Of a DNA stretch of 43,597 nt, positions 1,282-37,633 are shown piece after piece. The position numbers and the translations under genes were made by a program. Origin of the DNA: an uncultured Sulfuricella sp. (GTDB taxonomy: Bacteria; Pseudomonadota; Gammaproteobacteria; Burkholderiales; Sulfuricellaceae); NCBI GenBank assembly GCA_964451375.1, contig CAYVIN010000031.1, positions 1 to 43,597 on the forward strand, in the 5' to 3' direction. Within the stretch, counting starts at the first letter, position 1; every line of letters begins with the position of its first letter. Below the pieces are notes generated by a model. It worked only from the letters and a program-made list of their open reading frames with translations. It made no database searches and had not been told where the DNA came from.

Positions 1282-1665
1282 TCATTTTTGCACAATAAAT
1301 TGCTCCGACCCCATATTCCAGAGAATTTCATGGCGGCTCGATAATATCCGGCAAGCCTCGCGCCACAGCCCCGCGTAAGCCCCAGCGGAGATCACCAACG
1401 GCAACGACTGGTTATAAGCACTGCTGTGCGGCGCAAGCAGCCACAAAAACCACAAGGCGCGCTGCCCATGCGACAACGGGACACAACGGAACAAGGTCGG
1501 ATCACGCGCCAGTAGATCGAGAATCTCCGTCTTGTGAGCGCGCAAAAAGGCCATCTGCACCTCCCCCGCTGCGGCGCGCGGCGCGCGAAAACGCAGCTTG
1601 TCGCCCTCGCACCAGAATTGCCAACCGGCGAAGATCAGGGAGAGGATTTCCTTTGAAAAAGTCAT
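1282..1665 (-). pseudogene. Truncated NRPS gene fragment: TubC-like N-terminal docking domain plus the start of a condensation domain (PLSHGQRALWF..AYNQ..RHEIL), ending inside the 50-bp repeat
   Basis: The residues EILSLIFAGWQFWCEGDKLRFRAPRAAAGEVQMAFLRAHKTEILDLL match the TubC_N docking consensus. The C-domain C1 motif follows. The frame then runs into repeat-derived sequence (NMGSEQFIVQK) and stops after 127 aa. Confidence 0.6.
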
Positions 1666-2524: not shown

Positions 2525-2828
2525 GCGGCTCGCCTATCGGTTGTACCGCGAGGCGCATCCCCATCGCCTTGAGAATTGCAGAGAGCGTCTTCAGTTCGGG
2601 GTTTCCCCGTTCCGACAGGGTGCGATATAACGTATGAGCGTTTATTTCCGCCTGCCGGGCGACTTCCTGAACTCCGCCGTATGCCTTGCTGAGGCTGCGC
2701 AAGGCGAGCATCAAATCGACCTCATCGCCATCTTCCAGCACGGAATTCAAATATTCCGCAGCCAGCGCGGGATCGCTGCGAAACATTTTAATTGTCGCTT
2801 CTTCATGGGTTCGATGCGTTTCAGCCAT
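2517..2828 (-). CDS. Addiction-module antidote protein (HigA-like XRE HTH, 'probable addiction module antidote' family)
   Basis: 103 aa. It contains ..AEYLNSVLEDGDEVDLMLALRSLSKAYGG..INAHTLYRTLSERGNPELKTLSAILKAMGMRLAVQP, typical of the HI1420-type antidote family. Its start codon overlaps the stop of the upstream killer remnant (ATGGCTGA). Confidence 0.7.
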   Translation of the reverse strand: MAETHRTHEEATIKMFRSDPALAAEYLNSVLEDGDEVDLMLALRSLSKAYGGVQEVARQAEINAHTLYRTLSERGNPELKTLSAILKAMGMRLAVQPIGEPHV

Positions 2829-9320: not shown

Positions 9321-10052
9321 TCAGGCGGGTTGGGGCTGCGCTTCGGCGGCGGGGGCGACGGGTTCCTCGGCTGCGGCTGCGGGCGCTGCGGCTGCCGCGC
9401 TTTCCTTGCACTTGCCGGGCATCAGGCACACGGCAGATTCCTGACCGCGTTTGTAGAGGTCGCGGAAATACGCGGAATATTTCTGCGATTGGAAATCCGC
9501 CAGGGTGCCGCCGATTTCAAAGTGGCCGATGAACAGGTTGCCGATGGCGTAGGTATAGGCGGCAGACATCAGGGGCAGGGACAACATCCCGATGGCGGTG
9601 CCCGCGCCGGGAATCAGCTTGCCCAGGCTCGCGCCGATGATCAGTGCGGAACCGGCTGCACCCAACGTGCCGAACAATGAGGTCACAATGCCGCGCGCGG
9701 CTTTTTCGGAGAACGGCACTTCGTAAAGATCGCACAGACGTTTGACCAGCGTCACCTGGGCCGTGACCGCAGCCGCCAGATCAAGCAGCGGGAAAGGCAG
9801 CAAACCGACGCCGAGGCACACCATCATGTGGTCGCGAACGCGGGTTTCGGCCTGAAGCAGGCGGGCTTTGCGCCCTTCTGCAGTGAGGAATGGCGCATCC
9901 GGCGCAGCGGTTTCGGCATTTTGGGTGGTTTCTGCAACGGCTTCGGGGCTGGCGTTTTCGGCATTCATGGTGGTCTCCTGTGGGGTGGTTGACAAGACTT
10001 CGGCGTCACTGACATCTGCGGTAGTACGGCTGGGGGATTTCCTGGGCATCTC
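9321..10052 (-). CDS. DUF697-like (YcjF-related) membrane-associated protein; start at MPRKSPS with GGAG RBS
   Basis: The conserved core LLPFPLLDLAAAVTAQVTLVKRLCDLYEVPFSE..IPGAGTAIG..AYTYAIGNLFIGHFE resembles DUF697 proteins. The C-terminus is an Ala/Pro-rich tail. A GGAG lies 8 nt before the ATG at 10050-10052. Confidence 0.45.
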   Translation of the reverse strand, partial: EMPRKSPSRTTADVSDAEVLSTTPQETTMNAENASPEAVAETTQNAETAAPDAPFLTAEGRKARLLQAETRVRDHMMVCLGVGLLPFPLLDLAAAVTAQVTLVKRLCDLYEVPFSEKAARGIVTSLFGTLGAAGSALIIGASLGKLIPGAGTAIGMLSLPLMSAAYTYAIGNLFIGHFEIGGTLADFQSQKYSAYFRDLYKRGQESAVCLMPGKCKESAAAAAPAAAAEEPVAPAAEAQPQPA

Positions 10053-10123
10053 GGGCGCTCCTTTCGTTAACCTGCGGATCAAGTGTGCTACTTTTTTAAC
10101 TACAAAGTGATGAAGGAACATCA

Positions 10124-11677
10124 TTATTTTCCTTGCGTAACGGCGGTGGCGGAACCCGCAGCCGGCGCGACATTGTTCGCTGCCGTCCAGCGCCGCCACA
10201 AGCCGCCCAGACCGCCGTCAATGCGCCGCCCGCCGCCGCTTGCAGCCACCGGCTGGCTGGCGGCGTTTTCCGGGCTGCCGCCGGTGGCGACGGGCGCCGC
10301 GTTATGGGCAGGCGCGGCGCGTGACGGCATACGGTCGGAATGGACTTCGGCGCGCTGGTTTTCGAGCGCGCCCGGCCCGACCGGAATCGCCTGATCGGTG
10401 CGCTGCGACGGTTCGCCGGCTTGGGTGACGCGCCCGCTTGCATTGGTGACGATGACGCCGCCGGGTTCCCCGGTATTGACGGGACGGGTCGAGGGAAAAG
10501 CGTTGCGCGGGGTATTCGTGCCGACTGCCGGGGCTTGCGCTTCCATACGGGGGGCGCGGTAGTCCTGGCTCCCCAATTGGCTTTGTGGTGCGGCTGCGCC
10601 GTTGCTTACCACATTCTCATTGGGAAAACGCGGGGCCGGGGTCGGGACGGAACGATCATGTTTTTCCAGCATGTCGGCGACAATTTCCCGCGCAGTGCTG
10701 CTGTTCATGTGGGGTAACGCTGCGCTCGCAGCAGACTTGGCGGGGGCCGTCTTGGCCGCCCCCGGCGCGGCGGAATCCGGGGTGTTGGCGGCGATATCGC
10801 CGCCCAGAATCAAGGGCAACTGCCCTTTGCCGTTGCCCATGATAACCACCTTGGCATTGGGCGAACGGGCCACGTCCACGGTAGCTTCGATGCCGCGCCA
10901 AGTAAGCAGTTGCGGAGTCAGTGACGCGCCCACCACTTCGTAAAAACCGCGCAGGCCTTCGGCCTCGATACGCAGCCGTTCCGCTTCCTTTTTCTGGGTT
11001 TCGACCATGAAGTTGTAGGCGTACATCGATTGTTCCTGGGCCAGCTTGCGTTCGATGGCGGCGGTGATGGCCTGCGGCAGGGAAATTTCGGTAATGATGA
11101 AATCGCTGAATTCAATCAGTTCGTTAAGCGGGTGAACACGTAATGCTTTCTCGACTTCCGCCTGCATCTTGTCGTAACCGACCGTATACATTTCGTGGGA
11201 GCGATAGAGAGCGACCATTTCGCGTATCGATCCGGTGACCAACGGCAACACCACCAGATCGCGGTAAAACGGCCCGATCTGCTGGTGCAGCTTGGGAACA
11301 CTTTCGCGCTTGGGTTTGAACAGCAGGGTGGCGCGCACCGTGACCGCCATCCCTTCGCGGCTGTAAGCCACCATTTCGACGTTAATCGGCTGCATCCGCG
11401 CCTCGTAGACGTAGAACTGGTTCCACGGGAACTTGGTGACCAGCCCCTCGCCGTACACGTCGGCAATCTGGGTGCCGCCAAACAGCAGGTCGAACATCAC
11501 GCCGATCTGGCCGGGCCGCACGGTGACGAAGATGCTGCGCCAGAACACCAGCATCAGAAAACCGATGGTGACCAGGATGCCGAGCACTTTCAGGGTGTTA
11601 TCCGGTGAAAAAATCCGTTGCATCACACTGGGGGATGGCGTTTGCGGGTTTGCGGAAGGTTCCGTTGCGCTTGTCAT
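10124..11677 (-). CDS. SPFH/band-7 (prohibitin/HflK-like) membrane protein with a low-complexity C-terminal extension of about 230 aa
   Basis: N-terminal TM anchor followed by a band-7 domain (..VRPGQIGVMFDLLFGGTQ..VYGEGLVTKFPWNQFYVYEARMQ..), then a long Ala/Pro/Gly/Ser-rich tail. Confidence 0.7.
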   Translation of the reverse strand: MTSATEPSANPQTPSPSVMQRIFSPDNTLKVLGILVTIGFLMLVFWRSIFVTVRPGQIGVMFDLLFGGTQIADVYGEGLVTKFPWNQFYVYEARMQPINVEMVAYSREGMAVTVRATLLFKPKRESVPKLHQQIGPFYRDLVVLPLVTGSIREMVALYRSHEMYTVGYDKMQAEVEKALRVHPLNELIEFSDFIITEISLPQAITAAIERKLAQEQSMYAYNFMVETQKKEAERLRIEAEGLRGFYEVVGASLTPQLLTWRGIEATVDVARSPNAKVVIMGNGKGQLPLILGGDIAANTPDSAAPGAAKTAPAKSAASAALPHMNSSTAREIVADMLEKHDRSVPTPAPRFPNENVVSNGAAAPQSQLGSQDYRAPRMEAQAPAVGTNTPRNAFPSTRPVNTGEPGGVIVTNASGRVTQAGEPSQRTDQAIPVGPGALENQRAEVHSDRMPSRAAPAHNAAPVATGGSPENAASQPVAASGGGRRIDGGLGGLWRRWTAANNVAPAAGSATAVTQGK

Positions 11678-11690
11678 ATTATATTTGCTA

Positions 11691-13325
11691 TCAATTCGTT
11701 ACGGGATTTTTCGACCAGTTTACCAGTTTGCCTTCTTCCATGGCGAGAACCCGGTCGGCAAGATGGAAATAACGGTCATCGTGAGACACCACCAGCACCG
11801 CTTTGCCCCGATCCCGCAGGCGCGGCAGGAATTCCTCGTAAATCCAGGCGCGGAAAGCCGGATCCTGGTCGGCGGCGATTTCGTCGTAGACGTAGATTTC
11901 CTTGTCTTCCAGCACCGACAGGGACACCGCCAGGCGATGGCGCTGGCCGCGCGACAGTTCGAGGGTGGTGAAGGCTTCGTTGAGGTAATCGGTTTTTTTC
12001 GCCAGCCCCACGTCGGCAATCGCTGCGCGGATGTCCGTTACCGGGGTATCGCGGAAGCCGTAAAAACGGTCGAACAGGTGAAAATCGGTAAATACCGTGG
12101 CAAAGCGGCTGCGATACGCCACCCGGTTGTGCGGGCCGATGGGCTGGCCGTTCCACAAAATCTGCCCGGCGCTCGGGTAATACAGGCCGCTGATGACGCG
12201 CATCAGGGTGGTTTTGCCGGAGCCGTTGTGCCCCACCATAAACACCAGTTCGCCGGGCGCCAGCGTCAGCGAAATCGGGCCGATGCCGAAGGTCGAACCA
12301 TCCTCGATGCTCGCGTAGGAATATTCAAGCGCGTTGAATTGCAGGCTCTGGAGTGGCGCAAGGTGTTCCGGTTCGGCGGCTTCGCTGGACGTGCCGCGCG
12401 CCAGTTCCTCGCTCATCGCGGTGATTTCATCGTGGGCGGAATGCGCCTTGGCAAGCGTCGGAAACACCCGGAATATCCCTTCCACCAGCAGCCACATGAA
12501 CATCGAGGCATACACGATTTTCATCGCGTCGCGGGCGTCTTCGACGTATTGCGGCGTGACGAACACCACCGTGGCAAGCAGCAGGTAAAACGCCGCAAAC
12601 ACAATCGCGCCGAACTTGATCATGGTGTCCACCGCCGCCAGCCGCGAATCGCAGGCGGTATGGGCGCGCGCCAGGACGAAGCGGTCGATCAGGTCGTCGG
12701 CGCGGTTGCGATCCAGCTTGACCTCCTTGAAGCCTTGCAAAAGCTGGTTGAGCGAATCGAAAAAGGCGCGGTCGTCGAGCTGGCTCTGGCGCATCTCGTT
12801 TTCGGTGCGGGCTTTCTGATAACGCCCCGCCACCGCGATGACGGCAATCAGCACCAGCACCGCCGCCGCCGCAATAAATGAATACCAGGCCACGTACAGC
12901 GTGGCGAGCACAAAGCTGATCGAGGAAACCAGCCCCTGCGCGAGGATCAGCGGGGATTCCGCAAGAATCGGGGTGTTCCGCGCCAGCGTCCCATAAATCC
13001 GCTCGACGCCGAGTTTTTCCACAGTGCTGAAATCGGCGTTGCGCAGCAGATGGGCAAACTGGTCGCGCACCCGGAACACCACCGATTCGCCGACCGCATT
13101 CATCATGCGGGTGGTTTCACCCCGGCTCATCACCAGGATCACGCTGACCAGCACAAACGACGCAAGCAACTCGAAATCCATACCCAGCGCCGGATCGTAT
13201 TCGGTTACCGAGTTGACGATCACCGTCACCAGGGTGCTGCACACCGCCGACAATCCGAGATATAGATACAACCGCCAACCCCATGCAGCGGCGGCGGCCC
13301 GGAAAGTGTTGAGAAAACTTTTCAC
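11691..13325 (-). CDS. Fused TMD-NBD ABC exporter of the cyclic-peptide/siderophore-peptide type (SyrD/PvdE/YojI-like)
   Basis: 544 aa. N-terminal 6-TM domain. Walker A GHNGSGKTT. Signature LSRGQRHRL. Walker B YVYDEIAADQD. H-loop VVSHD. GTG start with AAGGA RBS. Confidence 0.8.
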   Translation of the reverse strand: MKSFLNTFRAAAAAWGWRLYLYLGLSAVCSTLVTVIVNSVTEYDPALGMDFELLASFVLVSVILVMSRGETTRMMNAVGESVVFRVRDQFAHLLRNADFSTVEKLGVERIYGTLARNTPILAESPLILAQGLVSSISFVLATLYVAWYSFIAAAAVLVLIAVIAVAGRYQKARTENEMRQSQLDDRAFFDSLNQLLQGFKEVKLDRNRADDLIDRFVLARAHTACDSRLAAVDTMIKFGAIVFAAFYLLLATVVFVTPQYVEDARDAMKIVYASMFMWLLVEGIFRVFPTLAKAHSAHDEITAMSEELARGTSSEAAEPEHLAPLQSLQFNALEYSYASIEDGSTFGIGPISLTLAPGELVFMVGHNGSGKTTLMRVISGLYYPSAGQILWNGQPIGPHNRVAYRSRFATVFTDFHLFDRFYGFRDTPVTDIRAAIADVGLAKKTDYLNEAFTTLELSRGQRHRLAVSLSVLEDKEIYVYDEIAADQDPAFRAWIYEEFLPRLRDRGKAVLVVSHDDRYFHLADRVLAMEEGKLVNWSKNPVTN

Positions 13326-13334
13326 GCGTTGTCC

Positions 13335-13637
13335 TTACATCGCCTGGGGTGCGGGCGGCGGCGCAGCGTCGCTGGTCGCAACGAATCCCGCCAGTTCGGC
13401 GATGGTCAGATCATCGCGCATCACCCCGTCGTTGAAAAACAGGGTTTCGTAGGGAAGTTTCCGGCCCCCCAGCTTGTGGGTGATGCTACCCAGCAGATGG
13501 ATGAGGTCAATCGAGGTCAACGCCAAATCCTCACGCAAAGACATGTCGCCGGAAAGGCTGTCAACGGTAAATTCGCTGTTCACCTCGTTGACCGCCTCAC
13601 ACACCATGGTTACGAAATCCATATTTTGTTGCTCCAC
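13335..13637 (-). CDS. Stand-alone acyl/peptidyl carrier protein
   Basis: 100 aa, acidic, four-helix-bundle-sized, with a candidate phosphopantetheine Ser in DLALTSIDLIHLLG. It lies 9 nt upstream of the ABC exporter gene. Confidence 0.6.
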   Translation of the reverse strand: MEQQNMDFVTMVCEAVNEVNSEFTVDSLSGDMSLREDLALTSIDLIHLLGSITHKLGGRKLPYETLFFNDGVMRDDLTIAELAGFVATSDAAPPPAPQAM

Positions 13638-13826: not shown

Positions 13827-16800
13827 TCAGCACACCAGCGTCGCGCCCGCACCAACCTGAGCGACAGCACTGATCCATTTCCCTTCCCGGTTAACCCACA
13901 CCTGGTAGGTTTTTCCACCGTCGTCCGGCGGCGCAGTCACCAGGGTGCGCCAGCCTCCCGCGTCGGCCTGCCAGGCGCTGCTCAGCCAGGCGTCGGGACG
14001 CCCCCGCAGGCCGCTTCCGGCGGCTTTGGAAGCGGCTTCCTTGGCGCACCACAGGCGCGCCAGCCCGACTTTTTCCAGTGTCGCACGTTCGGCGGGAGCG
14101 ACGATCTGCGCCTCCAGATGCGCCAACCCGGCAAAAGCCTGTTCCGGCTCGACATCGATACCCAGCATTTCTCCGCCTGCGCCGACCAGGGCCATCGCGC
14201 AGCCGTCGCAATGGGAGATGCTCAACGCTGCACTTTTACCGCCCGGCAGGATCGCTTGCGGCGCACCGCCGGGTGCGTTACTCACCGTCACGTCGGCGTA
14301 ATCGCTGTCCCGGTCGCCTTGGGCGCGTAACCAGGCAAGCAGCGCCGATTTGCCGGCAATCCGCCCGAGCAGCCAGGAAACCCGCCGCGCCGGGGCCGCC
14401 GTCGCCAGATCGCGCCACACTTGCCGTTCCGCCGCACTCAGCACGGCGCGCGCCGCGACTTCCAGCCACACCCCGCTGCCCGCGCTGAGCAAGCCGGTCG
14501 GCAGGTCGTCGAGCGTGGCCCGCCACAGTCCGGGCTGCGGCTCATCGAGGCGCGCCAGAATGTCGCCCTCAACCTGCGGATGAAGAATTTTGTGGAACGT
14601 CAGTCCCCAGTCGAAAATCCGCTGTTGCACCCCCGAGGCGCGATACAGCAGGCGTCCGCCGGCGTCGATAAAATCCACTCCGCCTTTGACATCCTGCCCG
14701 GATTGTACACAGGAAGCGCGCACCACGATATCTTTGCCAGGTGCCGCCGGGGGGGCAAAAAACTCAATTCGATCAATGGATACCGGAAAAATACCGACAT
14801 TCGGGCGGGTTTGCAGAGCGAATAACGCGGTGAGCTGGCCGATGGTGTCCAGCAACGTTGCCGGGGTGGCCAATTGATCGGGCCGGACAGCCCCCGCCAG
14901 TACGTCGTCGAACGGCGCAACCACGCCTTCCGCAACCATCCCGGCAGGGGTGTAATAGCGCACCCGGCGCATCGCGATGAAAGCGGGGCCGTGAAACAGG
15001 GCGTGATTAAAAACGTCGAGCGGCAACGTCAAAGGCAGCGCCGGAGCGGAAATTTCGGGCAGCGGCGCGGGCGCGCCGGGATAAGCCGCAGCGATTTCGA
15101 CGCCGCTGGAAAACAGCAACTCGCCCGCCGCGCCGCAGAGCCGCACTTGCCACACGCCGGGGGCGCTGCGCCGTGCTTCCAGAAGCAATTCGCGGCGCTC
15201 GGCGGCGACCTCCACCCACTGCATTCCCCGGCACTCGACAAGCGCCGTCACCACCCCGCCGCCATTGGCGCGCAAGGCGGCGGCAGCGCACATTTCGCAG
15301 GAAAACACCAGCGGTGAGACGGGCAGGCCAATCAAGCCGATATCCTTGCGGGTCAACGGCCTGCCAAAGGTGTGCTGGCGCAAAAAACCGTGCCGGGCCA
15401 GATCGAGGGTAATGCGGCAACGCCAGGTTTGGCCGTCCGCAGTAATATCGCGCGGCGCGTAAAAAACCAGCGGATCGTGGTTGCTGCGTTGCGCCATACC
15501 TGGCTCGCCGCCCTCCGGCGCAGGTTGCCCGGTGCTTTTCAGGCGCGCCACGGCGGCTTCCATGACGCGGGTCTGGGTGGCGAGAAAATCGCGCATCAGC
15601 GCGAAATGGCGATGCACCAGCAGCGCTGCGTCCGGGGAGTTTGCGACGGCGGGCGGCGACACGGCGGACGTAAAGGCCGCCCTATCCAGCGCCTGCCAGC
15701 CGGCAAAAAGCGGCTGGAGCTGGTTGGCCTTACCCATCACAAACAATTGCCCGAGGGTGCGCAGCAGCGCTGCGTAACCCGAGCCGTTTTCCCCGTCGCA
15801 GACCAGCGCATGATGCGGCTGGCCGCGCAGGGTGTCGCGCACGAAGCCGCTGAGCCGCCCCGCCGGGCCGACATCGACGAATAACCGGATGCCGTCTTCA
15901 TGCAGACGTTGGGTGGTTTCGCGAAAGCGCACCGTGCGATTCCATTGCGCAGCCGCAGCGGCGCGCCGCCCCGCGCCATCCGCCGGAAAGGGGGCGGCGC
16001 TGGCGGCGCTGTACAAGCGGCTGCGCAACGGTTTGTCGTCGATTTCCGCATATCCGGCGGCAAATCCGGCGGCGACTTCTTCGAACAACGGGGTATGGAA
16101 TGGCTGGTCGAACTGCAAACGGGTGCATATCACGCCCAGCCCGGCCAATTCCGTGAGCAGCGTCGCGCTCGCTTCGGGAACCAGGTGAACCAGCAATTGC
16201 GCGGGGCAGTTGTCGATGGAGACATAACCCCGTCCCGCCAGCAACGCGAGGATTTGCGGGCGCAGGTCGGGATTGGGCAGGGTCAGCGCGACATTGCAAC
16301 CGTGCGCGGTGGCGGGCTGGTCGGTGTCGGCAAGCCAGGGACGGATGAAATCCAGGCCGGCGAGGATTTCCTGATGATGCCCCTCAAGTCCGTAATAGGC
16401 CGCCAGGAGCGCCGCATTTTCGCCGTTGCTGTGGCCGACCACCGCATCGGGAGATGCGCCGCAGCGCTCCAGCATTTCCGCCAGCGCCAGCCCGCCGACC
16501 AGGCAGGATTGCCCACCGTCGGCCAGCGCAAAGAGGCGCTCGGCTGCGGCGGCGCGTCCCGCAGGATCGGGCGGCGCTTCGTAAAGGGTTTCCGAAGGAC
16601 GCGGTGACTCCGGGGTCTGTCCATCAAGCAGGTCGTACCAATAACGCACACTGTCGAGATACAGCGCGCTGTCGCGCAACATCCCGAAATATTGGGAACC
16701 CTGGCCGGGAAAAATGAACGCCAGCCCGCCACTTTCCGCCGCGCCCGTGAAATTCCCCCAGATACCACGCGGATGCTGGTAGCGCGTCAGTTTGGGGTCG

Positions 16801-17603
16801 TTCAAGGCGGCCCCGAGCAAGGTGAGTTTGTGGGACAAATCGCCAACATCGGTAGCGACCAGCGCGGCGCGCACCGGGCCGCACGCCGAGTTTGCACATT
16901 CCGCCGCCAGATCGACGAGGCGTTGCGCCGTATCAACCCGCGCCGCCAGCGCTTTCACCCGCTCAATCAGGGCGGCGCGGCTATCCGCCGCCACCACGAT
17001 CAATTCATGGGAACGCCGCCGCTGGAGGCGCGGACGCGGCGCGTCCGGCGCTGCTTCCGCGATGCGCAGGGGGAACGCCGCACCCGGCGGATGTAATTGA
17101 AAGCTTCGTCCCTCGTCGCGATACCCCCACACCCAGGGGATCCGTTGGGCGTCCGGCCCCGCCGCAATACGGAAGCGGTCATGCACCATCCACACGGCGA
17201 GCAGGAAATCGCGGCACGAAAAACCGCCCGGCAAAGCAAGCGGGGAAGCGGAAAAATCCACCCTCACGGCGCACGGGTCGCTGTCCGCCGCGCCCAGCGC
17301 GACCGCCCAGGCAATGTCGCCGACATCTCCGGCGAGCAGGGTCGCCAACCCCTGAGTCGCGCGTTCCAGCGCTGTTTGCAGCGCACCGGCGAGACTCGCG
17401 TCGTCGCACTCCAGCAGCACTGCGCCGCTGAAATCGCCGAGTTCCGTCAGGCAGACGTTGCGCCGGGCGGTGTCGGGCGCTCCCCCGCCATCTCCCCCGG
17501 CGAGCCGGTCGAGCGCTTCGTCCAGCCCGCCCTGCGGCCCGCGCAGGGACTGCCCGAGCAGCCTTGCCGCGCCGTCAGCCGGGGAAAACGCCGGAACCTT
17601 CAC
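13827..17603 (-). CDS. Multidomain synthase subunit: N-terminal region of unknown function, acyltransferase, PKS-type dehydratase (hot-dog), C-terminal 4'-phosphopantetheinyl transferase
   Basis: 1258 aa. AT motifs FIFPGQGSQYFGM, GHSNGE and FHTPLF. DH-like region HTFGRPL..LPVSP plus a DxxxQ motif (LLDTIGQL). The C-terminus carries PPTase motifs GIDVEPEQ and WCAKEAASKAAG. The GTG start lies 2 nt after the RND gene stop. Confidence 0.8.
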   Translation of the reverse strand: MKVPAFSPADGAARLLGQSLRGPQGGLDEALDRLAGGDGGGAPDTARRNVCLTELGDFSGAVLLECDDASLAGALQTALERATQGLATLLAGDVGDIAWAVALGAADSDPCAVRVDFSASPLALPGGFSCRDFLLAVWMVHDRFRIAAGPDAQRIPWVWGYRDEGRSFQLHPPGAAFPLRIAEAAPDAPRPRLQRRRSHELIVVAADSRAALIERVKALAARVDTAQRLVDLAAECANSACGPVRAALVATDVGDLSHKLTLLGAALNDPKLTRYQHPRGIWGNFTGAAESGGLAFIFPGQGSQYFGMLRDSALYLDSVRYWYDLLDGQTPESPRPSETLYEAPPDPAGRAAAAERLFALADGGQSCLVGGLALAEMLERCGASPDAVVGHSNGENAALLAAYYGLEGHHQEILAGLDFIRPWLADTDQPATAHGCNVALTLPNPDLRPQILALLAGRGYVSIDNCPAQLLVHLVPEASATLLTELAGLGVICTRLQFDQPFHTPLFEEVAAGFAAGYAEIDDKPLRSRLYSAASAAPFPADGAGRRAAAAAQWNRTVRFRETTQRLHEDGIRLFVDVGPAGRLSGFVRDTLRGQPHHALVCDGENGSGYAALLRTLGQLFVMGKANQLQPLFAGWQALDRAAFTSAVSPPAVANSPDAALLVHRHFALMRDFLATQTRVMEAAVARLKSTGQPAPEGGEPGMAQRSNHDPLVFYAPRDITADGQTWRCRITLDLARHGFLRQHTFGRPLTRKDIGLIGLPVSPLVFSCEMCAAAALRANGGGVVTALVECRGMQWVEVAAERRELLLEARRSAPGVWQVRLCGAAGELLFSSGVEIAAAYPGAPAPLPEISAPALPLTLPLDVFNHALFHGPAFIAMRRVRYYTPAGMVAEGVVAPFDDVLAGAVRPDQLATPATLLDTIGQLTALFALQTRPNVGIFPVSIDRIEFFAPPAAPGKDIVVRASCVQSGQDVKGGVDFIDAGGRLLYRASGVQQRIFDWGLTFHKILHPQVEGDILARLDEPQPGLWRATLDDLPTGLLSAGSGVWLEVAARAVLSAAERQVWRDLATAAPARRVSWLLGRIAGKSALLAWLRAQGDRDSDYADVTVSNAPGGAPQAILPGGKSAALSISHCDGCAMALVGAGGEMLGIDVEPEQAFAGLAHLEAQIVAPAERATLEKVGLARLWCAKEAASKAAGSGLRGRPDAWLSSAWQADAGGWRTLVTAPPDDGGKTYQVWVNREGKWISAVAQVGAGATLVC

Positions 17604-17605
17604 GA

Positions 17606-27200: not shown

Positions 27201-30200
27201 GGCTGGCCGTCAGCGTTGCCGTACACCGGCAGCGCCGCCGCGCGGAAGGCGACGCCGGCAATGCGCGTCGCCAGGGTTTCCTGGGCGCTCGCCACATAGG
27301 GCGAATGGAACGCCCCGCTCACCGGGAGGCGGCGGAAGTTGAGCGCGGCGGCCTGAAGCGCCGTTTCGGCGGCCTCGATATCCGCCACGCTGCCGGACAG
27401 CACCACCTGGGCCGGCGCATTGTGGTTGGCGATCACCACTTTGGCGTCGAGACCGGCCAGCACGGCGGTCACCGCGCTACGCTCGGCAAGCACCGCCGTC
27501 ATTGCGCCTGCGCCGCACGAGTGCATTGCCGCACCGCGTTGCAGGGATAACCCAAACAGGGTGGCGAGGTCATAACAACCGGCGGCGTATAACGCGGTGA
27601 ATTCGCCATACGAATGCCCGGCCAGGAAATCCGCATGGATACCCGCTGTTTCGAGCACCCGCAGCCAGGCGGCGGAGATTGCGCCGATGGCGATTTGCGC
27701 CGCCCGCGTATCGGTGAGGCGCGCCGAAAAACGTTGTTCGAGTTCCGCATTAAACGCGGCGGGCGGGTAAATCAGGCGATCCAGGCCGATGGCGGCGGGG
27801 TGCGCGAGGGCGTAAGTCTGGACGGCTTCTTCCACCACCCTGCGGAAAGGTTCGAGATAAACGGCGGCCTCGCGCCCCATGTGGGGACGCTGGCTGCCCT
27901 GGCCGGGAAACAGGAACACCAGACGGCCTTCACGTGCGGCGCGGCACGGGCCGAACCAGACGTTGGGGATTTGTTCCGCACTGCCTTTTTCCAGCGCACC
28001 TGCGACATTTTCCAGGGAACGCAGCAGTTCCGCGCGGTCGCCGGCAGCCAGCGCCAGCGCCCACTCGGCGCGGGGCTGTTCGGCGACGCGCCGCGCAGCG
28101 GCGGCGGCGATGGCCGGCAGCGCCAGTTCGGCGCGCGCCGCGAGGCGTTGCAATTTGCGGACTTCACCCAACAACGCAGCGGCGTCGGCGGCGCTCGCGA
28201 CAAACGGGATGCGCGGCCATTCCGCCGCACCCAGCGGCGCAGCTGCGCCATTTTGATATTCCTCCAGCACGGCATGGGCGTTGGTGCCGCCGAAGCCGAA
28301 GGCGCTCACCCCGGCGCGGCGCGGCGCATCGACCGGGCGGAACCAGGGCAATGGGGCGGCGGCGAGGAACACCGGACAATCCGCCTGGGTCAGCGGGGCA
28401 ATGGGGTTGTCCACCGCCGCCTGCGGCGGCAGGGTCTGGTGATACAGCGCCAGGGCGGCCTTGGAAATCCCGGCCAGTCCGGCGGCGGTCTTGATATGGC
28501 CGAGTTGGGCTTTGGCCGAGCCGAGCAATACGCTTTCGGGATGCGCGGCGTGGGCCAGGAGTTCGCTGGTAATCGTCTCCAGTTCGGCGCGGTCGCCGAC
28601 CTGGGTGCCGGTGCCGTGGGCTTCGTAGAGGCCGATGCGGGATATCGGGAACCCGGCGATGTCGTAGGCGCGCCGCACCGCGCGGCGCTGCCCGAGGGGA
28701 CGCGGGGCGGTCATGCCGAGACTGCGCCCGTCGCTGGAGCCGCCCACTGCGCGGATCACCGCATAAATCCGTTCGCCGGCCCGTTCGGCATCGGCCAATG
28801 GACGCAATACCAGCCCCACCACCCCTTCCCCCAATACGGTGCCGTCGGCGGCGCTGTCGAAGGCGCGAATTCTGCCGGTTTTGGATAACGCCCCGACAGT
28901 GCTGAAATTGACGAACTGGTCGGGCGTCAGGGATACGTCGGCCCCCGCCACCACGGCGGCTTTGCAACGCCCGGCGGCGAGTTCGGCGGTGGCGATGGCA
29001 AGCGCCGATAGGCTGGAGGCGCAGGCGGAATCCACCGCCAGATTGGGGCCGCCCAGATCGAGACGGTTGGCGATGCGCCCGGCGGTCACCGAATTCAAAC
29101 TGCCGGGAAAGGTTTCTTCGGTGCGTTTCGGCACCCGTTCGCGGAGCCGTTCGACGCTGTCCGGGTCGAGCAGGAACGGTGCGCAGGCCGACATCACCAG
29201 TTTGTTGCCGTTGAATCCGGCCACGTCGGAACACGCGGCGATCACTGCGGTGTCCTCGCGGGGGAAACCGTTTCCGTCGTTCCAGCCGGCGTCGTCGAGG
29301 GCGCGCCGCGCCACGTCGAGGGCGATGAGCTGGGCGGGCGAGATGCTGGTGACGGCTTTGGGCGGCACTCCGTAACGTAGCGGTTCAAAAATGAAGGGCT
29401 GAATCAACCCGCCCCAGCGCCCGCTACAGGCTTCCGCACCCTTCTGCGGATTTTCCTCGAAGAGCAGCCGCCAATCCCAGCGGTCGCGGGGAATTTCGTC
29501 GATGTGTACTTCCTTACTCAACAAACACCGCCAGAATTCGCCGGGGTCGCCGCCGCCGGGGGTTTGCATGGCGATGCCGACAATCGCGATATCGAGCGGT
29601 TCGGCAGCCAGCCGCAGCGGCGCGTCCGCTTCGGCGTAGGTCGTCAGCAGCGCCGCCCCGCCGACGCTGACGCGTTCATGGAGTTGCCCCAGGGTGGTTT
29701 GCTCGCACAGCAGGGTAGCCACCTCGCCGGCCATGTACATGCCATCCGCCAATTGGCGTTCCGCCGGGACTTCCAGCAACTGCCCGGCGCTTCGCTCCAA
29801 GCCCTTGGAGGCCAGGCGCAGGCGGCCCAGCGCCAGCTCGTCAAGTTCGGCGCGGAACGTTTCCGCCGGGGTGGCGGCGGCGGCGAGGCGCACCCGCGCC
29901 GCCGACCAGACGTGCGCAAAAGGAGTGTCCAGGCAGCGCACCGCGTGGCCGCGCCCGCTTTCCAGATTGACGGTGCGGCAGCTTTCCAGCACAGCCTGAC
30001 GGAAGGTCTCGGTGATTGCGCCGCTTTCCACCGCTTCGTCGCAGGTGAGATAGGCGGTGCCCATCAGGACGCCGGCCTTGACGCCGCGTTCGATCAGCGG
30101 GGCGAGCACCGCCATCGCCAGCATCGCTGAGATATCGTCATGGATGCCGCCGGCCAGCAGCACATGGAGTTTTTCATAGCCGCAGGCGGGCGGGGTGGCG

Positions 30201-31672
30201 AGTAATTCGTGGACGACACCTTCCCACAACACGAAGGAATGCAGCGGCCCGACGTGTCCGCCGCATTCGCGGCCTTCCAGAACGATGCGGCTAACCCCCT
30301 GCTCCACCAGTGCGCGAGCGCGGCGTGGGGTGGGCGCATGGACATAGGCGGCGATGCCATCCTGTTCGAGACTGTGCGCCTGATCGGCGCGGCCCCCGGC
30401 AATCAGTGCAAAAGCCGGCTTGCAGCGCCGTACTTCGCTGATCTGCGCCGCCAGCAGCGGCGCATCGGCAAACCCCAGCAAGCCGACCCCCCACGGACGG
30501 CCCGCGCAAACGCGGGCGGTTTCGTCAAGCAATGCGGCGACCCGTTCCCCCGGCAGCAGCGCCAGGGCCAGCATCGGCAACGCGCCGTTGGCGGCAATCG
30601 CGGCGGCAAATTCGGGAATGTCGCTAACCCGCGTCATCGGCCCCTGGACAATCGGATAAAGCGTCCCGTGGCTAGCCGCCAGCGGCCCCTGAGGCGCTAA
30701 CGCCTCAGCCACTTTGGCGGCATTTTGGGCAAATTGGCGGGGCGCATCAAAAACCGCCCGCGCCAGCTTGGGTAAACGCGGATGAACCCGGCGCAGCGCC
30801 GCCGAGAGCCCCGCGCCCTGCCCCAAGAGCAGCGGCGCGCCGCCGTCGCGCCGCGCCAATTCGGTTTTCGCGCGGGTTATCCAGGTGTTGTGGAGTTGCG
30901 CGGCGTCCTGGTTTTCCGCTCCGGCGCGCGCTTCCAGCTCCAGCGCCAGGGTTTCCAGGGCGCGTCCGCCGGGCGCGGCGGGATGCACCAGCACCCGCAC
31001 CGGAAACCCCAGCGGCTCGCCGACCGCGATCAGTTCAGTGCCTTCGAGGGTTTCGCGCAGACGCGCCGGAAGATCCAGCGGCCCTTGCGGCCAGGCGCTC
31101 AACTGGTCGTCCAGCACGACGCCCGCCGCACCGGCCAGCGCGCAGGCGGGGGCGCTGTATAACCCGACGCCGCCACGCACCAGTAGCGGTCGCCGGGCGA
31201 TCTGCGCCCAGCCGGCTGCCGCCAGACGCTGCATTTGCACGAAAGTGGACTGGCTGCCGGCGATCCCGCCGGCTTCTGCGCCGACCAGGATATAGCCGGC
31301 CAGATAGGGAAGTTTTGCCGCCGGGAAATTTAGATTGAGTTCGAGCAGACGTTCAACCGAGCGGACTTGTACCCAGCAGCGCCCGCCGCTTACGCCGGGT
31401 TCGGCAGGGTCATCGAGCAGCCATTCGATCCGCGTCTCGCCGCGCAAAGCCGGTTCCGCCTCGTGGGGCGCAACCCCGGCGAGAATGGCCGCATCGAACG
31501 GGAGCGCCGCCAGTATGGCGCTCAGCCGGGCGGGCTCGAGAGCCAAAAACATCTCGCGGGGGAAATATACCTGCGCGCCGACCCGCGCCAATGCGACGAC
31601 TTCGGCCACATCCGCGCGCCCCAGCGCGATCACGCAATGTTGTGTTCCTTCCTGTCCGGTTACGGTTCTCAT
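24284..31672 (-). CDS. Giant PUFA-synthase-like protein: N-terminal degenerate NMO-like region, PfaD/FabK-type enoyl reductase, KS, AT, Pro/Ala-rich linker, 2 x ACP (LGIDSIKRVEI), KR
   Basis: ER motifs are YPIVQGPMTRVSD and RECGGHVGP. KS motifs are DSACASSL, EAHGTGTQVGD and KAQLGHIKTAAG. AT motifs are LFPGQGSQ, GHSYGE and AFHSPY. Two carrier domains have ELGIDSIKRVEIVEEI and DLGIDSIKRVEIAELI. The KR has a Rossmann N-subdomain and SDYALANEALNF. ATG at 31670-31672 has a GAGGGGGA RBS. Confidence 0.85.
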   Translation of the reverse strand: MRTVTGQEGTQHCVIALGRADVAEVVALARVGAQVYFPREMFLALEPARLSAILAALPFDAAILAGVAPHEAEPALRGETRIEWLLDDPAEPGVSGGRCWVQVRSVERLLELNLNFPAAKLPYLAGYILVGAEAGGIAGSQSTFVQMQRLAAAGWAQIARRPLLVRGGVGLYSAPACALAGAAGVVLDDQLSAWPQGPLDLPARLRETLEGTELIAVGEPLGFPVRVLVHPAAPGGRALETLALELEARAGAENQDAAQLHNTWITRAKTELARRDGGAPLLLGQGAGLSAALRRVHPRLPKLARAVFDAPRQFAQNAAKVAEALAPQGPLAASHGTLYPIVQGPMTRVSDIPEFAAAIAANGALPMLALALLPGERVAALLDETARVCAGRPWGVGLLGFADAPLLAAQISEVRRCKPAFALIAGGRADQAHSLEQDGIAAYVHAPTPRRARALVEQGVSRIVLEGRECGGHVGPLHSFVLWEGVVHELLATPPACGYEKLHVLLAGGIHDDISAMLAMAVLAPLIERGVKAGVLMGTAYLTCDEAVESGAITETFRQAVLESCRTVNLESGRGHAVRCLDTPFAHVWSAARVRLAAAATPAETFRAELDELALGRLRLASKGLERSAGQLLEVPAERQLADGMYMAGEVATLLCEQTTLGQLHERVSVGGAALLTTYAEADAPLRLAAEPLDIAIVGIAMQTPGGGDPGEFWRCLLSKEVHIDEIPRDRWDWRLLFEENPQKGAEACSGRWGGLIQPFIFEPLRYGVPPKAVTSISPAQLIALDVARRALDDAGWNDGNGFPREDTAVIAACSDVAGFNGNKLVMSACAPFLLDPDSVERLRERVPKRTEETFPGSLNSVTAGRIANRLDLGGPNLAVDSACASSLSALAIATAELAAGRCKAAVVAGADVSLTPDQFVNFSTVGALSKTGRIRAFDSAADGTVLGEGVVGLVLRPLADAERAGERIYAVIRAVGGSSDGRSLGMTAPRPLGQRRAVRRAYDIAGFPISRIGLYEAHGTGTQVGDRAELETITSELLAHAAHPESVLLGSAKAQLGHIKTAAGLAGISKAALALYHQTLPPQAAVDNPIAPLTQADCPVFLAAAPLPWFRPVDAPRRAGVSAFGFGGTNAHAVLEEYQNGAAAPLGAAEWPRIPFVASAADAAALLGEVRKLQRLAARAELALPAIAAAAARRVAEQPRAEWALALAAGDRAELLRSLENVAGALEKGSAEQIPNVWFGPCRAAREGRLVFLFPGQGSQRPHMGREAAVYLEPFRRVVEEAVQTYALAHPAAIGLDRLIYPPAAFNAELEQRFSARLTDTRAAQIAIGAISAAWLRVLETAGIHADFLAGHSYGEFTALYAAGCYDLATLFGLSLQRGAAMHSCGAGAMTAVLAERSAVTAVLAGLDAKVVIANHNAPAQVVLSGSVADIEAAETALQAAALNFRRLPVSGAFHSPYVASAQETLATRIAGVAFRAAALPVYGNADGQPYPADAQEANRRLQAHMTAAVEFVAQIENLYAAGARCFVEVGPGAVLTRLVGKILPDRGVTALALDETPEMGGLLGVLGQLWLAGEDVAWENLLPESWYVSSLEGLLEQPAPQIPATAWWVGGQDARPVDEQSPLGESGVKPQLDFEEAQKMREEAGRTPQPADTAAPAAPPATDMVRLVADFQDTMRVFLSSQERILMAALGAAPASGAICAASLMPSMPVAVSVPQVAAPPLAATPAAIPAPAPAAAPVLDRAALAALVREVVASCSGYPESVLSPKHDLESELGIDSIKRVEIVEEIQRRLPPGQFAQLAGRSGELSRAKTLDQITDILSAVSGGVAAVPAPASAAPATLSAAELGDVVRRVVSELTGYPAQLLGANQDMEADLGIDSIKRVEIAELIVRNLPAQFAERLRSRPDALARAKRLQDIDAILAGLLDDAPPAAPLVTSLPPAAVAADEPETPPQYDDSCPGYTVVFEPAPLSPLPLTSPLAGKRVLVAEGDPALTHAVITHLRDLGVNPVVLPWALACRAGEVDKFLANGAVDAVLQLSPTRRPGHSALDSEAWMQAALHAVLPVAQHCAPRWTEPVSWLRWLTVTATGGAPGQNGAPEGESALLQALGGGVAGMLRCLHIEHPGATVRIADLPVEWDTALAAQTIVAELHAATDQETVSWLDGERKLMRLAAWESAPVEPGEAFRHILAIGGIRGITAHCLLSLAGPQTAISIIARGEPALQEDPASAAIPDMNGLRAYFAAALAQEGQAPQARDIERHARSVFRDRAARAALAKLREAGSTVTVFAADALDRSAVAAAIHAAQQQNGAPDCVVHGAGIIEDKRLIDKKPESWRRVIDTKLYPVLALGAHLETAKLRKMVFFGSVAGSIGNLGQSDYALANEALNFAGKAFAARWPGVSVSTINWGPWAGLGMASDAVNQQFAERGIKTIQPAAGAAFFSAAVWNGPLQLVAGAGYWETA

Positions 31673-31969
31673 ACGCCGTCCCCCCTCAACACAAACAACC
31701 AGCAAAACAGTAACCCATTCGAATCGTCTTTCCGCGAAATCTCAGGCGAGGATACTAGCATGGTTGGTCGCGTAAAAAACCGGGTTTTCCCCTACTTGAA
31801 ATAGGTGATTTGGTGGATTTTCCGATCAAAGTTATCATCAAAACACGCCGCCCTGCGCCGGTCTTTCTGAAATAGCGTTACACTTTCAACAAGGTACGGC
31901 GCGAGCGCAGGTGTTGTTCCGACCCGCCGGATTGCCGGGAACCTTTTCAATTTCAGGGAGGCGATTCAA

Positions 31970-34314: not shown

Positions 34315-34402
34315 GATTGCGCTAGTTTACACCAGTGCGGCTTGAAAATGTCCGACCGTTTTGTTAAGGTAATCCCCATTTTTCAGCAAGGAACCCCTAT
34401 CC

Positions 34403-37610: not shown

Positions 37611-37633
37611 ATTCAGTCTCCACCGCGCGACGT

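What the first reader, a model, noticed from the sequence alone, without database searches (positions are those of the whole stretch)
13827..17603. Acyltransferase-dehydratase-phosphopantetheinyl transferase tri-domain protein (self-contained carrier activation)
PPTases (PfaE, Sfp or AcpS types) are normally stand-alone proteins. Here, C-terminal PPTase motifs (GIDVEPEQ ... WCAKEAASKAAG) sit on the same polypeptide as a PfaB-like AT (GHSNGE) and a PKS-type DH (DxxxQ). The about 240-aa N-terminal region matches no domain I recognise. This fusion would hard-wire carrier-protein activation into the pathway and is an unusual architecture.
Basis: partly seen in the sequence, partly recalled or inferred. 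Interest (0 to 1): 0.7.

Follow-up and report, generated by a model that had tools for sequence, protein, structure and literature searches.

The report
PfaB-like acyltransferase–dehydratase–PPTase lipid-synthase subunit
The gene is real and does fuse an acyltransferase, a dehydratase and a carrier-protein-activating enzyme, but this layout is a widespread, already described accessory subunit of bacterial PUFA-synthase-like "secondary lipid" synthases, so it is a new member of a known kind.

Summary

The unassigned N-terminus is therefore a PfaB-like KS' plus linker.

The fusion is not rare. An exhaustive search with the DH-PPTase half found 194 clusters (50% identity) at E<=1e-30. Nearly all of the best 150 matched DH and PPTase in one stretch, most preceded by (KS)-AT-(ACP).

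In the four related loci that show it, the gene sits near a PfaDA-like ER-KS-AT-ACP-KR synthase; the window's copy lacks a DH. A small discrete ACP follows it in all six.

The literature already describes "pfaBC homologs harbouring a PPTase domain" (Shulse & Allen types M to P; a 2025 preprint). It also describes ArsD and the enediyne PKS PPTase domain.

Best reading: a trans-acting subunit that supplies the missing dehydratase, activates the carrier proteins, and probably transfers the finished acyl chain.

Verdict: new member of a known kind, with low to moderate interest. The product lipid is unknown.

The parts
13827..17603 (-). Whole gene: KS'-linker-AT-DH-PPTase, 1258 aa, GTG start
   Evidence: ORF. 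Domains. Co-linear homologues. dN/dS 0.21.
17049..17576 (-). Pseudo-ketosynthase remnant (KS'), about residues 10-185. It is a half thiolase fold with no catalytic Cys or His.
16734..17048 (-). KS'-AT linker, about residues 186-290
   Evidence: NCBIfam PfaA and PKS models align from residue 174/184 onwards. PDB KS-AT didomains align from about residue 202-224. hhalign.
15684..16733 (-). Acyltransferase domain, about residues 291-640. Motifs: GQGSQ 300, GHSNGE 390 (Ser392), FHTP 502 (His503).
15492..15683 (-). Post-AT linker, about residues 641-704. It has a disordered stretch followed by a long helix at 657-690.
   Evidence: AF2 model. This segment has the highest dN/dS, 0.44.
14568..15491 (-). 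PKS-type double-hotdog dehydratase, about residues 705-1012. His744 lies in HTFGRPL...LPVSP; Asp919 and Gln923 lie in DTIGQ.
13830..14552 (-). Sfp-type (group II) 4'-phosphopantetheinyl transferase, about residues 1018-1258. Key residues: R1081, K1085, S1128, H1131, D1150, E1152, E1189, K1193.
13335..13637 (-). Discrete divergent acyl carrier protein, 100 aa, with the DLALTS(42)ID motif. It lies immediately downstream.
   Evidence: Ser42 is invariant in 4 syntenic homologues. 43 of the 44 PDB profile hits are ACPs; best is AcpM, E=0.0036. PP-binding E=0.011. The equivalent gene is annotated 'acyl carrier protein' in Streptomyces.
24284..31705 (-). PfaDA-like partner synthase, 2473 aa: ER(NMO/FabK)-KS-AT-ACP-ACP-KR, with no DH
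   Evidence: Pfam. TIGR02813 PfaA 828 bits. Two LGIDS ACP motifs at 1787 and 1888, and no DH motif.
23401..24258 (-). GT_PLOD-like putative glycosyltransferase, conserved in the cassette
   Evidence: Pfam 36.6 bits. Same position in related loci.
17606..23326 (-). Tripartite efflux genes: outer membrane factor (21860-23326), membrane fusion protein (20715-21830) and RND pump (17606-20692). The RND stop codon abuts the target's start.
   Evidence: Pfam. RND identified by eye and by ACR_tran in the Ferrovibrio-like locus. Junction sequence.
9321..13325 (-). ABC ATPase/permease (11691-13325), Band 7/prohibitin (10124-11677) and DUF697 (9321-10199). This trio is conserved downstream of the ACP.
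   Evidence: Pfam. Same order, in whole or in part, in L002, the P0025 locus and plasmid CP049030.
3016..8436 (-). Type I PKS, 1806 aa: AT*(paralogue of the target's linker-AT)-ACP-KS-AT-(weak DH-like)-ACP
   Evidence: Pfam. Its residues 15-387 are 33% identical to target residues 201-605. Motifs.
1282..1665 (-). Truncated remnant of the terminal NRPS: TubC_N docking domain plus the first ~55 residues of a condensation domain
   Evidence: Pfam. The intact C-A-PCP-TE NRPS follows the PKS in the closest related locus.

Best explanation
The gene encodes the accessory 'PfaBC-like plus PPTase' subunit (ArsD-like) of a two-protein, iterative, PUFA-synthase-related type I fatty-acid or 'secondary lipid' synthase.

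The partner is the PfaDA-like protein (ER-KS-AT-ACP2-KR, 24284-31705). It has every elongation activity except a dehydratase. The target acts on it in trans in three ways.

1. PPTase domain (inferred from conserved catalytic residues and fold). This Sfp-type domain transfers 4'-phosphopantetheine from CoA to the carrier proteins of the pathway. These are the two ACPs of PfaDA, the discrete 100-aa ACP encoded immediately downstream, and probably the two ACPs of the 1806-aa PKS.

2. DH domain (inferred). This PKS-type domain (His744/Asp919) dehydrates the 3-hydroxyacyl-ACP made by the partner's KR in every cycle. The partner's ER can then reduce the enoyl intermediate and a long, largely saturated chain is built.

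3. KS'-linker-AT module (the least certain step). It has a Ser392/His503 dyad and no conserved malonyl-binding Arg. It is proposed to behave like PfaB, as a terminal long-chain acyltransferase that moves the finished chain off the PfaDA ACPs. The likely acceptor is the discrete ACP or the PKS loading ACP, whose own N-terminal AT is a paralogue of this one.

The chain would then be extended once by the PKS. In intact relatives it is joined to an amino acid by a C-A-PCP-TE NRPS and exported (RND/ABC genes).

Shown here: gene integrity, domain identities, catalytic-residue conservation, purifying selection and conserved synteny. Inferred: all enzymatic activities, substrates and the product.
For: Domain identities:
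- Pfam and NCBIfam hits.

Catalytic residues:
- Invariant across 19 diverse DH-PPTase sequences: H744, D919, R1081, K1085, S1128, H1131, D1150, E1152, E1189, K1193.
- Invariant across 25 AT sequences: S392, H503.
- The PPTase motifs align with those of M. tuberculosis PptT.

Partner and synteny:
- The partner lacks a DH.
- A gene for this kind of subunit lies near a PfaDA/PfaA-like gene in the window and in the four related loci that extend far enough to show it: the ENA contig, the Ferrovibrio-like MAG, the Rhodobacteraceae plasmid and the Streptomyces plasmid. A small ACP gene follows it in those loci and in L002 and L003.
- No stand-alone PPTase gene is called in any of these loci.

Selection: dN/dS is 0.11-0.29 in every folded domain.

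Precedents in the literature:
- ArsD is described as the PPTase that modifies the type I FAS ArsA (PMC4824345).
- PfaB is KS'-linker-AT, acts as a terminal long-chain acyltransferase and possibly off-loads to a soluble ACP (PMC12895367).
- CalE8 is listed with KS, AT, KR, DH and PPTase domains (PMC3107222).
Against: - No activity has been measured for this protein or for any close relative.
- The AT keeps the canonical GQGSQ and GHSxG motifs that PfaB has lost (PMC12895367). A malonyl- or starter-loading role is therefore not excluded. The absence of the Arg rests on a sequence alignment in a variable region.
- The DH is below Pfam significance in this protein itself, and its His motif is non-canonical (H-x2-G rather than H-x3-G).
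- The 1806-aa PKS has a weak DH-like region, so the target's DH might serve that module instead.
- In this window the terminal NRPS is truncated, so the pathway may be incomplete in this genome.
- ArsD's domain order could not be checked here because the primary papers are not held.
Confidence: 0.7

Rival explanations
1. The AT domain is an ordinary malonyl-CoA:ACP transacylase, or a starter-unit loader. It would feed the discrete ACP or the PfaDA ACPs rather than act as a terminal off-loading acyltransferase. The DH and PPTase roles are as in the best explanation.
Against: The partner already has its own AT, GHSYGE at 1363, with a 164-bit FabD hit. No conserved Arg occupies the FabD R117 position in 25 family members. 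The KS'-linker-AT layout and the 510-residue superposition are those of PfaB. The family-specific GHSNGEN and (F/Y)HTPLF signatures differ from those of MATs.
Confidence: 0.25
2. The PPTase domain no longer works as an enzyme. It is kept as a structural or docking partner of the DH, and carrier activation is done by a genomic Sfp/EntD-type enzyme encoded elsewhere.
For: Its Pfam score is modest (32 bits) and 4PPT_N is below its cut-off. The model has pTM 0.88, which suggests a rigid DH-PPTase unit. One relative, P0004, has lost the catalytic half of the PPTase.
Against: All Mg2+-binding, CoA-binding and catalytic residues are invariant across 19 diverse sequences and align with those of PptT. 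dN/dS is 0.22. No separate PPTase is called in any related locus. Integrated PPTase domains are reported for the enediyne PKS CalE8 (PMC3107222 and its reference 27).
Confidence: 0.1
3. The tri-domain ORF is an assembly or sequencing artefact that joins separate AT-DH and PPTase genes.
For: The window is a metagenome-type contig. PPTases such as PfaE are usually separate genes.
Against: The reading frame is continuous, with GC3 of 0.75 typical of coding sequence. The identical protein occurs in a second assembly. Co-linear homologues occur in independent samples, isolate genomes and a closed plasmid. DH and PPTase match as one uninterrupted stretch in nearly all of the 150 best hits.
Confidence: 0.01
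4. It is a decayed fragment of an enediyne-type iterative PKS (PKSE: KS-AT-ACP-KR-DH-PPTase) and makes a polyene.
Against: No KR was found in any of the 150 family members labelled or in the seven scanned with Pfam. The KS is vestigial here. The neighbour is a PfaA-type synthase with an ER domain, which predicts saturated chains. No enediyne cassette genes are present in the window.
Confidence: 0.03

Closest known systems
'pfaBC homologue with a PPTase domain' of PUFA-synthase-like secondary-lipid clusters (Shulse & Allen 2011 types M to P, e.g. Renibacterium, Frankia, Streptomyces avermitilis, Dinoroseobacter, Gloeobacter; Aquimarina and Flavobacterium clusters in bioRxiv 10.1101/2025.10.24.682833)
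   Same: A fused pfaDA-like ER-KS-AT-ACP-KR partner goes with an AT-DH protein that lacks KS-CLF and ends in a PPTase. The PPTase carries the hShxH (LSISH) P1b' motif reported for types M to T (PMC3098273). The window's PfaDA-like protein is 43-45% identical (local alignment over 61-70% of its length) to Gloeobacter and Rhodobacterales proteins. The products are uncharacterised.
   Different: This clade has a very reduced KS' (about 180 aa) that only P0001, P0002, P0003 and P0025 share. It has a PKS-type single DH, where PfaC is reported to have FabA-like DH/I pairs. Its cassette also includes a discrete ACP, an ABC protein, a prohibitin and DUF697, plus RND efflux and a PKS(-NRPS). The papers give the domain layouts in figures that I could not read, so the match to a specific type is by organism and by text only.
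ArsD of the Azotobacter vinelandii arsABCD operon (type P)
   Same: ArsD is described as the 4'-PPTase that modifies the type I FAS ArsA, which makes C22-C26 acyl chains that stay on its ACP (PMC4824345, PMC6274091, PMC3098273). From my own memory, ArsD also carries the DH that ArsA lacks; this was not verified here.
   Different: There are no type III PKS genes in the window. Here the chain is handed to a type I PKS (and, in relatives, an NRPS). Sequence relatedness to ArsD was not tested.
PfaB of marine PUFA synthases (Shewanella baltica PfaB, PDB 9ry8; PMC12895367)
   Different: The target keeps GHSxG and PGQGSQ, where PfaB has GYSMG and PGVGT. TIGR02816 pfaB_fam scores 16 bits against a cut-off of 144. 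PfaB has no DH or PPTase.
Enediyne iterative PKS (PKSE: CalE8, SgcE, DynE8)
   Same: An integrated Sfp-type PPTase domain sits on the synthase itself, alongside a DH (PMC3107222); from memory it follows the DH at the C-terminus.
   Different: PKSE is a complete KS-AT-ACP-KR-DH-PPTase in a single protein and makes conjugated polyenes. The target lacks an active KS, an ACP and a KR, and it works with an ER-containing partner.
Stand-alone Sfp/EntD/PptT/PfaE group II PPTases
   Same: Same fold and catalytic motifs.
   Different: Those are free-standing proteins of about 230 aa. Here the domain is fused after a DH and is predicted to pack against it.

Membership tests
Sfp-type (group II) 4'-phosphopantetheinyl transferase, PF01648 | Profile match above the curated threshold | tested here: met
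   PF01648 32.3 bits against a cut-off of 25, E=1.1e-07, residues 1147-1202. The N-terminal half, 4PPT_N, scores 23.8 against 27, just below.
Sfp-type (group II) 4'-phosphopantetheinyl transferase, PF01648 | Catalytic and Mg2+/CoA-binding motifs: (S/T)xxH, GxDxE, (W/F)xxKE(A/S)xxK | tested here: met
   SISH 1128-1131, GIDVE 1148-1152 and WCAKEAASK 1185-1193. They are invariant in the family and align with the SLTHC, GIDAEP and FCAKEATYKA motifs of PptT.
Sfp-type (group II) 4'-phosphopantetheinyl transferase, PF01648 | Two-subdomain pseudo-dimeric fold of about 220-240 residues | tested here: met
Sfp-type (group II) 4'-phosphopantetheinyl transferase, PF01648 | Transfers phosphopantetheine from CoA to an apo-carrier Ser | not testable with these tools
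   Needs an in vitro assay or complementation.
PKS/FAS-type double-hotdog dehydratase | Double-hotdog fold | tested here: met
PKS/FAS-type double-hotdog dehydratase | Catalytic His (HxxxGxxxxP) and Asp (DxxxQ/H) | tested here: met
   H744 and D919 are invariant, and Q923 is conserved in at least 90% of sequences. The spacing around the His is atypical: HTFG...LPVSP.
PKS/FAS-type double-hotdog dehydratase | Pfam PS-DH / PKS_DH_N profile match | tested here: inconclusive
   Not significant in this protein. Significant in the homologues P0003, P0004, P0027 and P0028.
PfaB family (TIGR02816; KS'-AT terminal acyltransferase of PUFA synthases) | Inactive pseudo-KS, then linker, then AT | tested here: met
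   hhalign 98.2% for the KS tail plus linker. 510 residues superpose on 9ry8. No KS Cys or His motifs are present.
PfaB family (TIGR02816; KS'-AT terminal acyltransferase of PUFA synthases) | Family profile above the threshold | tested here: not met
   TIGR02816 scores 16.2 bits against a cut-off of 144.3.
PfaB family (TIGR02816; KS'-AT terminal acyltransferase of PUFA synthases) | GYSxG (Tyr replaces His), and loss of the PGQxQ oxyanion Gln | tested here: not met
   The target and its family have GHSNGE and PGQGSQ. The criteria are taken from PMC12895367.
PfaB family (TIGR02816; KS'-AT terminal acyltransferase of PUFA synthases) | Loss of the malonyl-binding Arg | tested here: inconclusive
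   No conserved Arg lies 25-29 residues after Ser392 in 25 sequences. The region aligns poorly, and the target itself has R421.
ArsD-like / 'pfaBC + PPTase' subunit of PfaDA-type secondary-lipid synthases | AT-DH-PPTase order on one polypeptide without KS-CLF | tested here: met
ArsD-like / 'pfaBC + PPTase' subunit of PfaDA-type secondary-lipid synthases | Encoded next to an ER-KS-AT-ACP-KR (pfaDA/ArsA-like) gene that lacks a DH | tested here: met
   Window gene 24284-31705. The same pairing is seen in four other loci.
ArsD-like / 'pfaBC + PPTase' subunit of PfaDA-type secondary-lipid synthases | Sequence relatedness to ArsD itself, and type III PKS partners | not tested
No type III PKS is found in the window.
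Enediyne PKS (PKSE) | Complete KS-AT-ACP-KR-DH-PPTase in one protein | tested here: not met
   No active KS, ACP or KR is present in the target.

The most novel reading that the evidence does not exclude
The conserved cassette may specify an uncharacterised class of long-chain membrane or envelope lipid, built and exported at a prohibitin-organised membrane site. The cassette comprises the PfaDA-like synthase, KS'-AT-DH-PPTase, a dedicated divergent ACP, an ABC protein, a prohibitin (Band 7) and DUF697, with or without RND efflux, a GT-like protein and a PKS-NRPS.

Within it, the PPTase is predicted to pack rigidly on the DH. It might do more than prime carriers. It could act as an ACP-docking platform that presents the partner's ACPs, or the orthogonal small ACP, to the trans-acting DH and AT. 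That would explain why DH and PPTase are inherited together in the relatives found here.
Probability: 0.15. Interest if true: 0.55.

Novelty: new member of a known kind. Interest (0 to 1): 0.25.

Why it matters
- It explains how a PfaA-type synthase that lacks a dehydratase can still run a full reductive cycle.
- It shows that carrier activation, dehydration and probably chain hand-over are bundled in one accessory protein that recurs across Proteobacteria, Chloroflexota, Planctomycetota and Actinomycetota.
- For genome mining, the DH-PPTase didomain and the adjacent small ACP are a handy marker of these orphan 'secondary lipid' clusters. For heterologous expression, such clusters may need no extra PPTase.
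- The finding does not overturn the view of PPTases, because integrated PPTase domains are already known.
- The real open question is the product and physiological role of this conserved cassette.

Tried and rejected
- **Genome scan.** The genome-contig scan returned mostly AT-only relatives. The window's genome is not among the species representatives. The apparent Blastopirellula AT-to-PPTase match in L008 turned out to be a separate PPTase gene next to a PKS, not a fusion; the similar L012 match was not examined.
- **Word-indexed protein searches.** These were too insensitive for this family: 24 hits with the protein and only 6 with a DH-PPTase profile. The exhaustive representative search was needed.
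- **Organism identification.** The GC content is 62%.
- **ArsD primary papers.** Funa 2006 and Miyanaga 2008 are not held, so ArsD's domain order rests on a secondary statement (PMC4824345) and on my memory.
- **Pfam on the DH.** Pfam alone did not call the DH in this protein. This was resolved by the structure and by the homologues.
- **Enediyne PKS reading.** Considered and rejected: no KR, no active KS, and an ER-containing partner.
- **Assembly-artefact reading.** Considered and rejected: independent co-linear copies exist and the gene is under purifying selection.
- **KR labelling.** Local phmmer labelling with the PfaA KR found no KR in any of the 150 hits. Pfam on seven of them agreed.

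Full report
**Observation**

The window has one uninterrupted ORF at 13827..17603 on the minus strand. It is 1258 aa with a GTG start, and that start lies two bases after the stop codon of the upstream RND pump gene (TGATCGTG). The same 1258-aa product is on record from NCBI and from an independent Logan assembly.

Pfam gives these results:
- Acyl_transf_1 at residues 372-594, 48.4 bits.
- ACPS PF01648 at residues 1147-1202, 32.3 bits, E=1.1e-07, above the curated cut-off of 25.
- 4PPT_N at residues 1066-1140, 23.8 bits, just below its cut-off.

The two results it said would refute the finding, no PPTase profile match or a split ORF, do not occur.

**Anatomy: C-terminal half (residues 701-1258)**

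I modelled this half with an alignment of 19 diverse family sequences. The model has mean pLDDT 89.7 and pTM 0.88.

Invariant residues across the 19 sequences:
- DH: His744 and Asp919, with Gln923 conserved in at least 90%.
- PPTase: R1081, K1085, S1128, H1131, G1148, D1150, E1152, E1172, W1185, E1189 and K1193.

The target motifs SISHC, GIDVEP and WCAKEAASKA align with SLTHC, GIDAEP and FCAKEATYKA of M. tuberculosis PptT. By sequence and fold, both domains look catalytically competent.

**Anatomy: N-terminal half (residues 1-700)**

I modelled this half with 25 family sequences. The model has pLDDT 84.4 and pTM 0.83.

hhalign puts residues 140-283 on the last ~50 residues of a KS plus the KS-AT linker, with 98.2% probability. 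A global alignment lays residues 1-139 co-linearly on the C-terminal half of a KS, with the EAHGTG and KS..GH motifs gone. Other family members show every stage from a complete KS to internally deleted remnants.

This is the layout recently solved for PfaB (PMC12895367).

The AT has its Ser392/His503 dyad invariant in the family. It keeps the canonical GQGSQ and GHSxG motifs. It has no conserved Arg where FabD has the malonyl-binding R117.

**Not an artefact, and under selection**

Co-linear homologues exist in independent samples and in named genome records:
- P0002 (90% identity), P0003 (51%) and P0025 (54% over the DH-PPTase half).
- A Ferrovibrio genome record, WP_341977907.1.
- A closed Rhodobacteraceae plasmid, QIE43321.1, annotated only as a "4'-phosphopantetheinyl transferase superfamily protein".

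Against the P0002 gene, dN/dS is 0.21 overall. By region it is:

| Region | dN/dS |
|---|---|
| DH | 0.11 |
| AT | 0.20 |
| PPTase | 0.22 |
| KS tail plus linker (140-290) | 0.26 |
| Residues 1-139 of KS' | 0.29 |

**How common is the fusion?**

I ran an exhaustive phmmer search with residues 701-1258 against 1.84 billion cluster representatives. It found 2237 hits at E<=1e-3, 935 at E<=1e-10 and 194 at E<=1e-30. In nearly all of the best 150, one stretch covers both the DH and the PPTase.

I labelled those 150 with domain queries taken from the window. Pfam on seven of them agreed. The counts were:

| Architecture | Count |
|---|---|
| AT-DH-PPT | 35 |
| DH-PPT | 31 |
| linker-AT-DH-PPT | 15 |
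| AT-ACP-DH-PPT | 11 |
| KS-AT-DH-PPT | about 31 |
| KS-AT-ACP-DH-PPT | about 8 |

Some of the shorter entries are probably gene fragments. Named members come from Alphaproteobacteria, Chloroflexota, Planctomycetota and Streptomyces. All carry generic names. The DH-PPTase didomain is therefore a widespread evolutionary unit.

**Context**

All cluster genes are on the minus strand. In order:

1. A 2473-aa PfaDA-like protein, ER(NMO/FabK)-KS-AT-ACP-ACP-KR. It scores 828 bits on the TIGR02813 PfaA model and has no DH.
2. A GT_PLOD-like protein.
3. An outer-membrane factor, a membrane fusion protein and an RND pump.
4. The target.
5. A 100-aa divergent ACP. Its DLALTS42ID Ser is invariant in syntenic homologues, and 43 of its 44 PDB profile hits are ACPs.
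6. An ABC protein, a Band 7/prohibitin protein and DUF697.
7. An 1806-aa PKS. Its N-terminal AT is a 33%-identical paralogue of the target's linker-AT. That AT is followed by ACP-KS-AT-(weak DH-like)-ACP.

The core of this cassette recurs elsewhere:
- An ENA contig that carries P0025. There the PKS is followed by an intact C-A-PCP-TE NRPS.
- A Ferrovibrio-like MAG.
- Plasmid pSC52_2.
- A Streptomyces plasmid and a Planctomycete contig, in KS-containing form. In both, the small gene after the DH-PPTase protein is an ACP.

None of these loci has a stand-alone PPTase gene called. Named relatives of the window's PfaDA-like protein include Gloeobacter and Rhodobacterales. Those are the lineages of Shulse & Allen's type O.

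**Mechanism**

The partner has KS, AT, ACP, KR and ER but no DH. The target has a DH, an AT and a PPTase but no active KS, ACP, KR or ER. Together they make one complete iterative type I FAS-like machine.

I therefore read the target as the trans-acting accessory subunit. It would:
- prime the carrier proteins (PPTase);
- dehydrate the 3-hydroxyacyl-ACP in each cycle (DH);
- probably move the finished chain to the next carrier (the PfaB-like KS'-AT). The likely acceptor is the adjacent discrete ACP or the PKS loading ACP.

The PfaB paper reports that PfaB is a terminal long-chain acyltransferase and proposes off-loading to a soluble ACP (PMC12895367). ArsD is described as the PPTase that modifies the FAS ArsA (PMC4824345). 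The enediyne PKS CalE8 is listed with KS, AT, KR, DH and PPTase domains (PMC3107222); that the PPTase follows the DH is from my own memory.

All activities here are inferred. The AT's role is the least certain, because it keeps the canonical MAT motifs that PfaB has lost.

**Comparison with what is known**

The arrangement is already in the literature:
[quoted passage not shown] It calls this an unusual arrangement that resembles the Renibacterium salmoninarum cluster. It also describes an Ottowia cluster with fused pfaDA and a pfaBC that lacks KS-CLF, followed by a PKS-NRPS.
- Shulse & Allen (2011) list PPTases, with an hShxH motif that the target shares, for types M to T. They also note a PPTase incorporated into pfaC in Pseudoalteromonas DS-12.

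The target fails strict PfaB membership. TIGR02816 scores 16 bits against a cut-off of 144, and the target has GHSxG rather than GYSxG. It is not a PKSE. I file it as a new member of the known "PfaBC-like/ArsD-like + PPTase" kind.

What is particular to this clade is the very reduced KS', which only four sequences share. The association with the ACP-ABC-prohibitin-DUF697 genes and with a PKS(-NRPS) is also particular to it.

**Verdict**

The domains and the carrier-activation idea are right. The claim of unusualness is overstated, and the N-terminus is now explained.
- Interest is low to moderate. The product and role of the conserved cassette remain unknown and are the part worth following.

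Noticed in passing
window 1282-1665 (-), with 1913-2828 (-) and 80-632 (-): The NRPS that follows the PKS in the closest related locus (C-A-PCP-TE) survives here only as a 127-aa stub. The stub has a TubC_N docking domain and the first ~55 residues of a condensation domain. A HigA-like antidote gene (2517-2828) and an unassigned ORF (1913-2524) lie between the PKS and the stub, and a BrnT/BrnA toxin-antitoxin pair (357-632, 80-373) lies beyond it. The pathway's release step may be lost in this genome.
   Followed up: partly
window 3016-8436 (-), residues 15-387: The 1806-aa PKS starts with a linker-AT unit that is 33% identical to the target's linker-AT. It shares the GHS(N/Y)GEN and GFVRDTLRG signatures but has FPGFGAKPG instead of GQGSQ. 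An ACP follows it. It looks like a dedicated loading didomain that receives the fatty acyl chain.
   Followed up: partly
window 9321-13637 (-); also L002, L086 and the P0025 locus: A small divergent ACP, an ABC protein, a Band 7/prohibitin protein and DUF697 follow the AT-DH-PPTase gene in the same order in distant Proteobacteria. The role of a prohibitin-like protein and DUF697 in a lipid cluster is unexplained.
   Followed up: partly
window 17600-17606: The target's GTG start lies 2 nt after the RND pump's TGA stop codon, which suggests translational coupling of an efflux gene with a biosynthetic gene. In the Ferrovibrio-like locus a citrate-synthase-like gene and a methyltransferase gene sit there instead; the Rhodobacteraceae plasmid has a hypothetical gene and a methyltransferase gene.
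   Followed up: no
window 24284-31705 (-), residues 1-340: The PfaDA-like protein has about 340 N-terminal residues ahead of the FabK/NMO-like ER, and they gave no Pfam hit. NCBI calls the gene 11 codons shorter, at 2462 aa.
   Followed up: no
window 33847-43546: The flank beyond the cluster holds housekeeping and mobile genes: a ribonuclease, an M90 peptidase, a metallo-beta-lactamase-fold protein, phosphoribulokinase/uridine kinase, an IS transposase (DDE_Tnp_1/DUF772, 39079-40446) and an AbiEii toxin (42647-43546). Mobile elements on both sides are compatible with horizontal acquisition of the cluster.
   Followed up: no
P0004 (959 aa, ENA contig of 56.9 kb): This relative has AT-DH followed by only the N-terminal half of the PPTase. 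It lacks the GxDxE and WxxKE motifs. The PPTase domain can therefore be lost from this scaffold.
   Followed up: no
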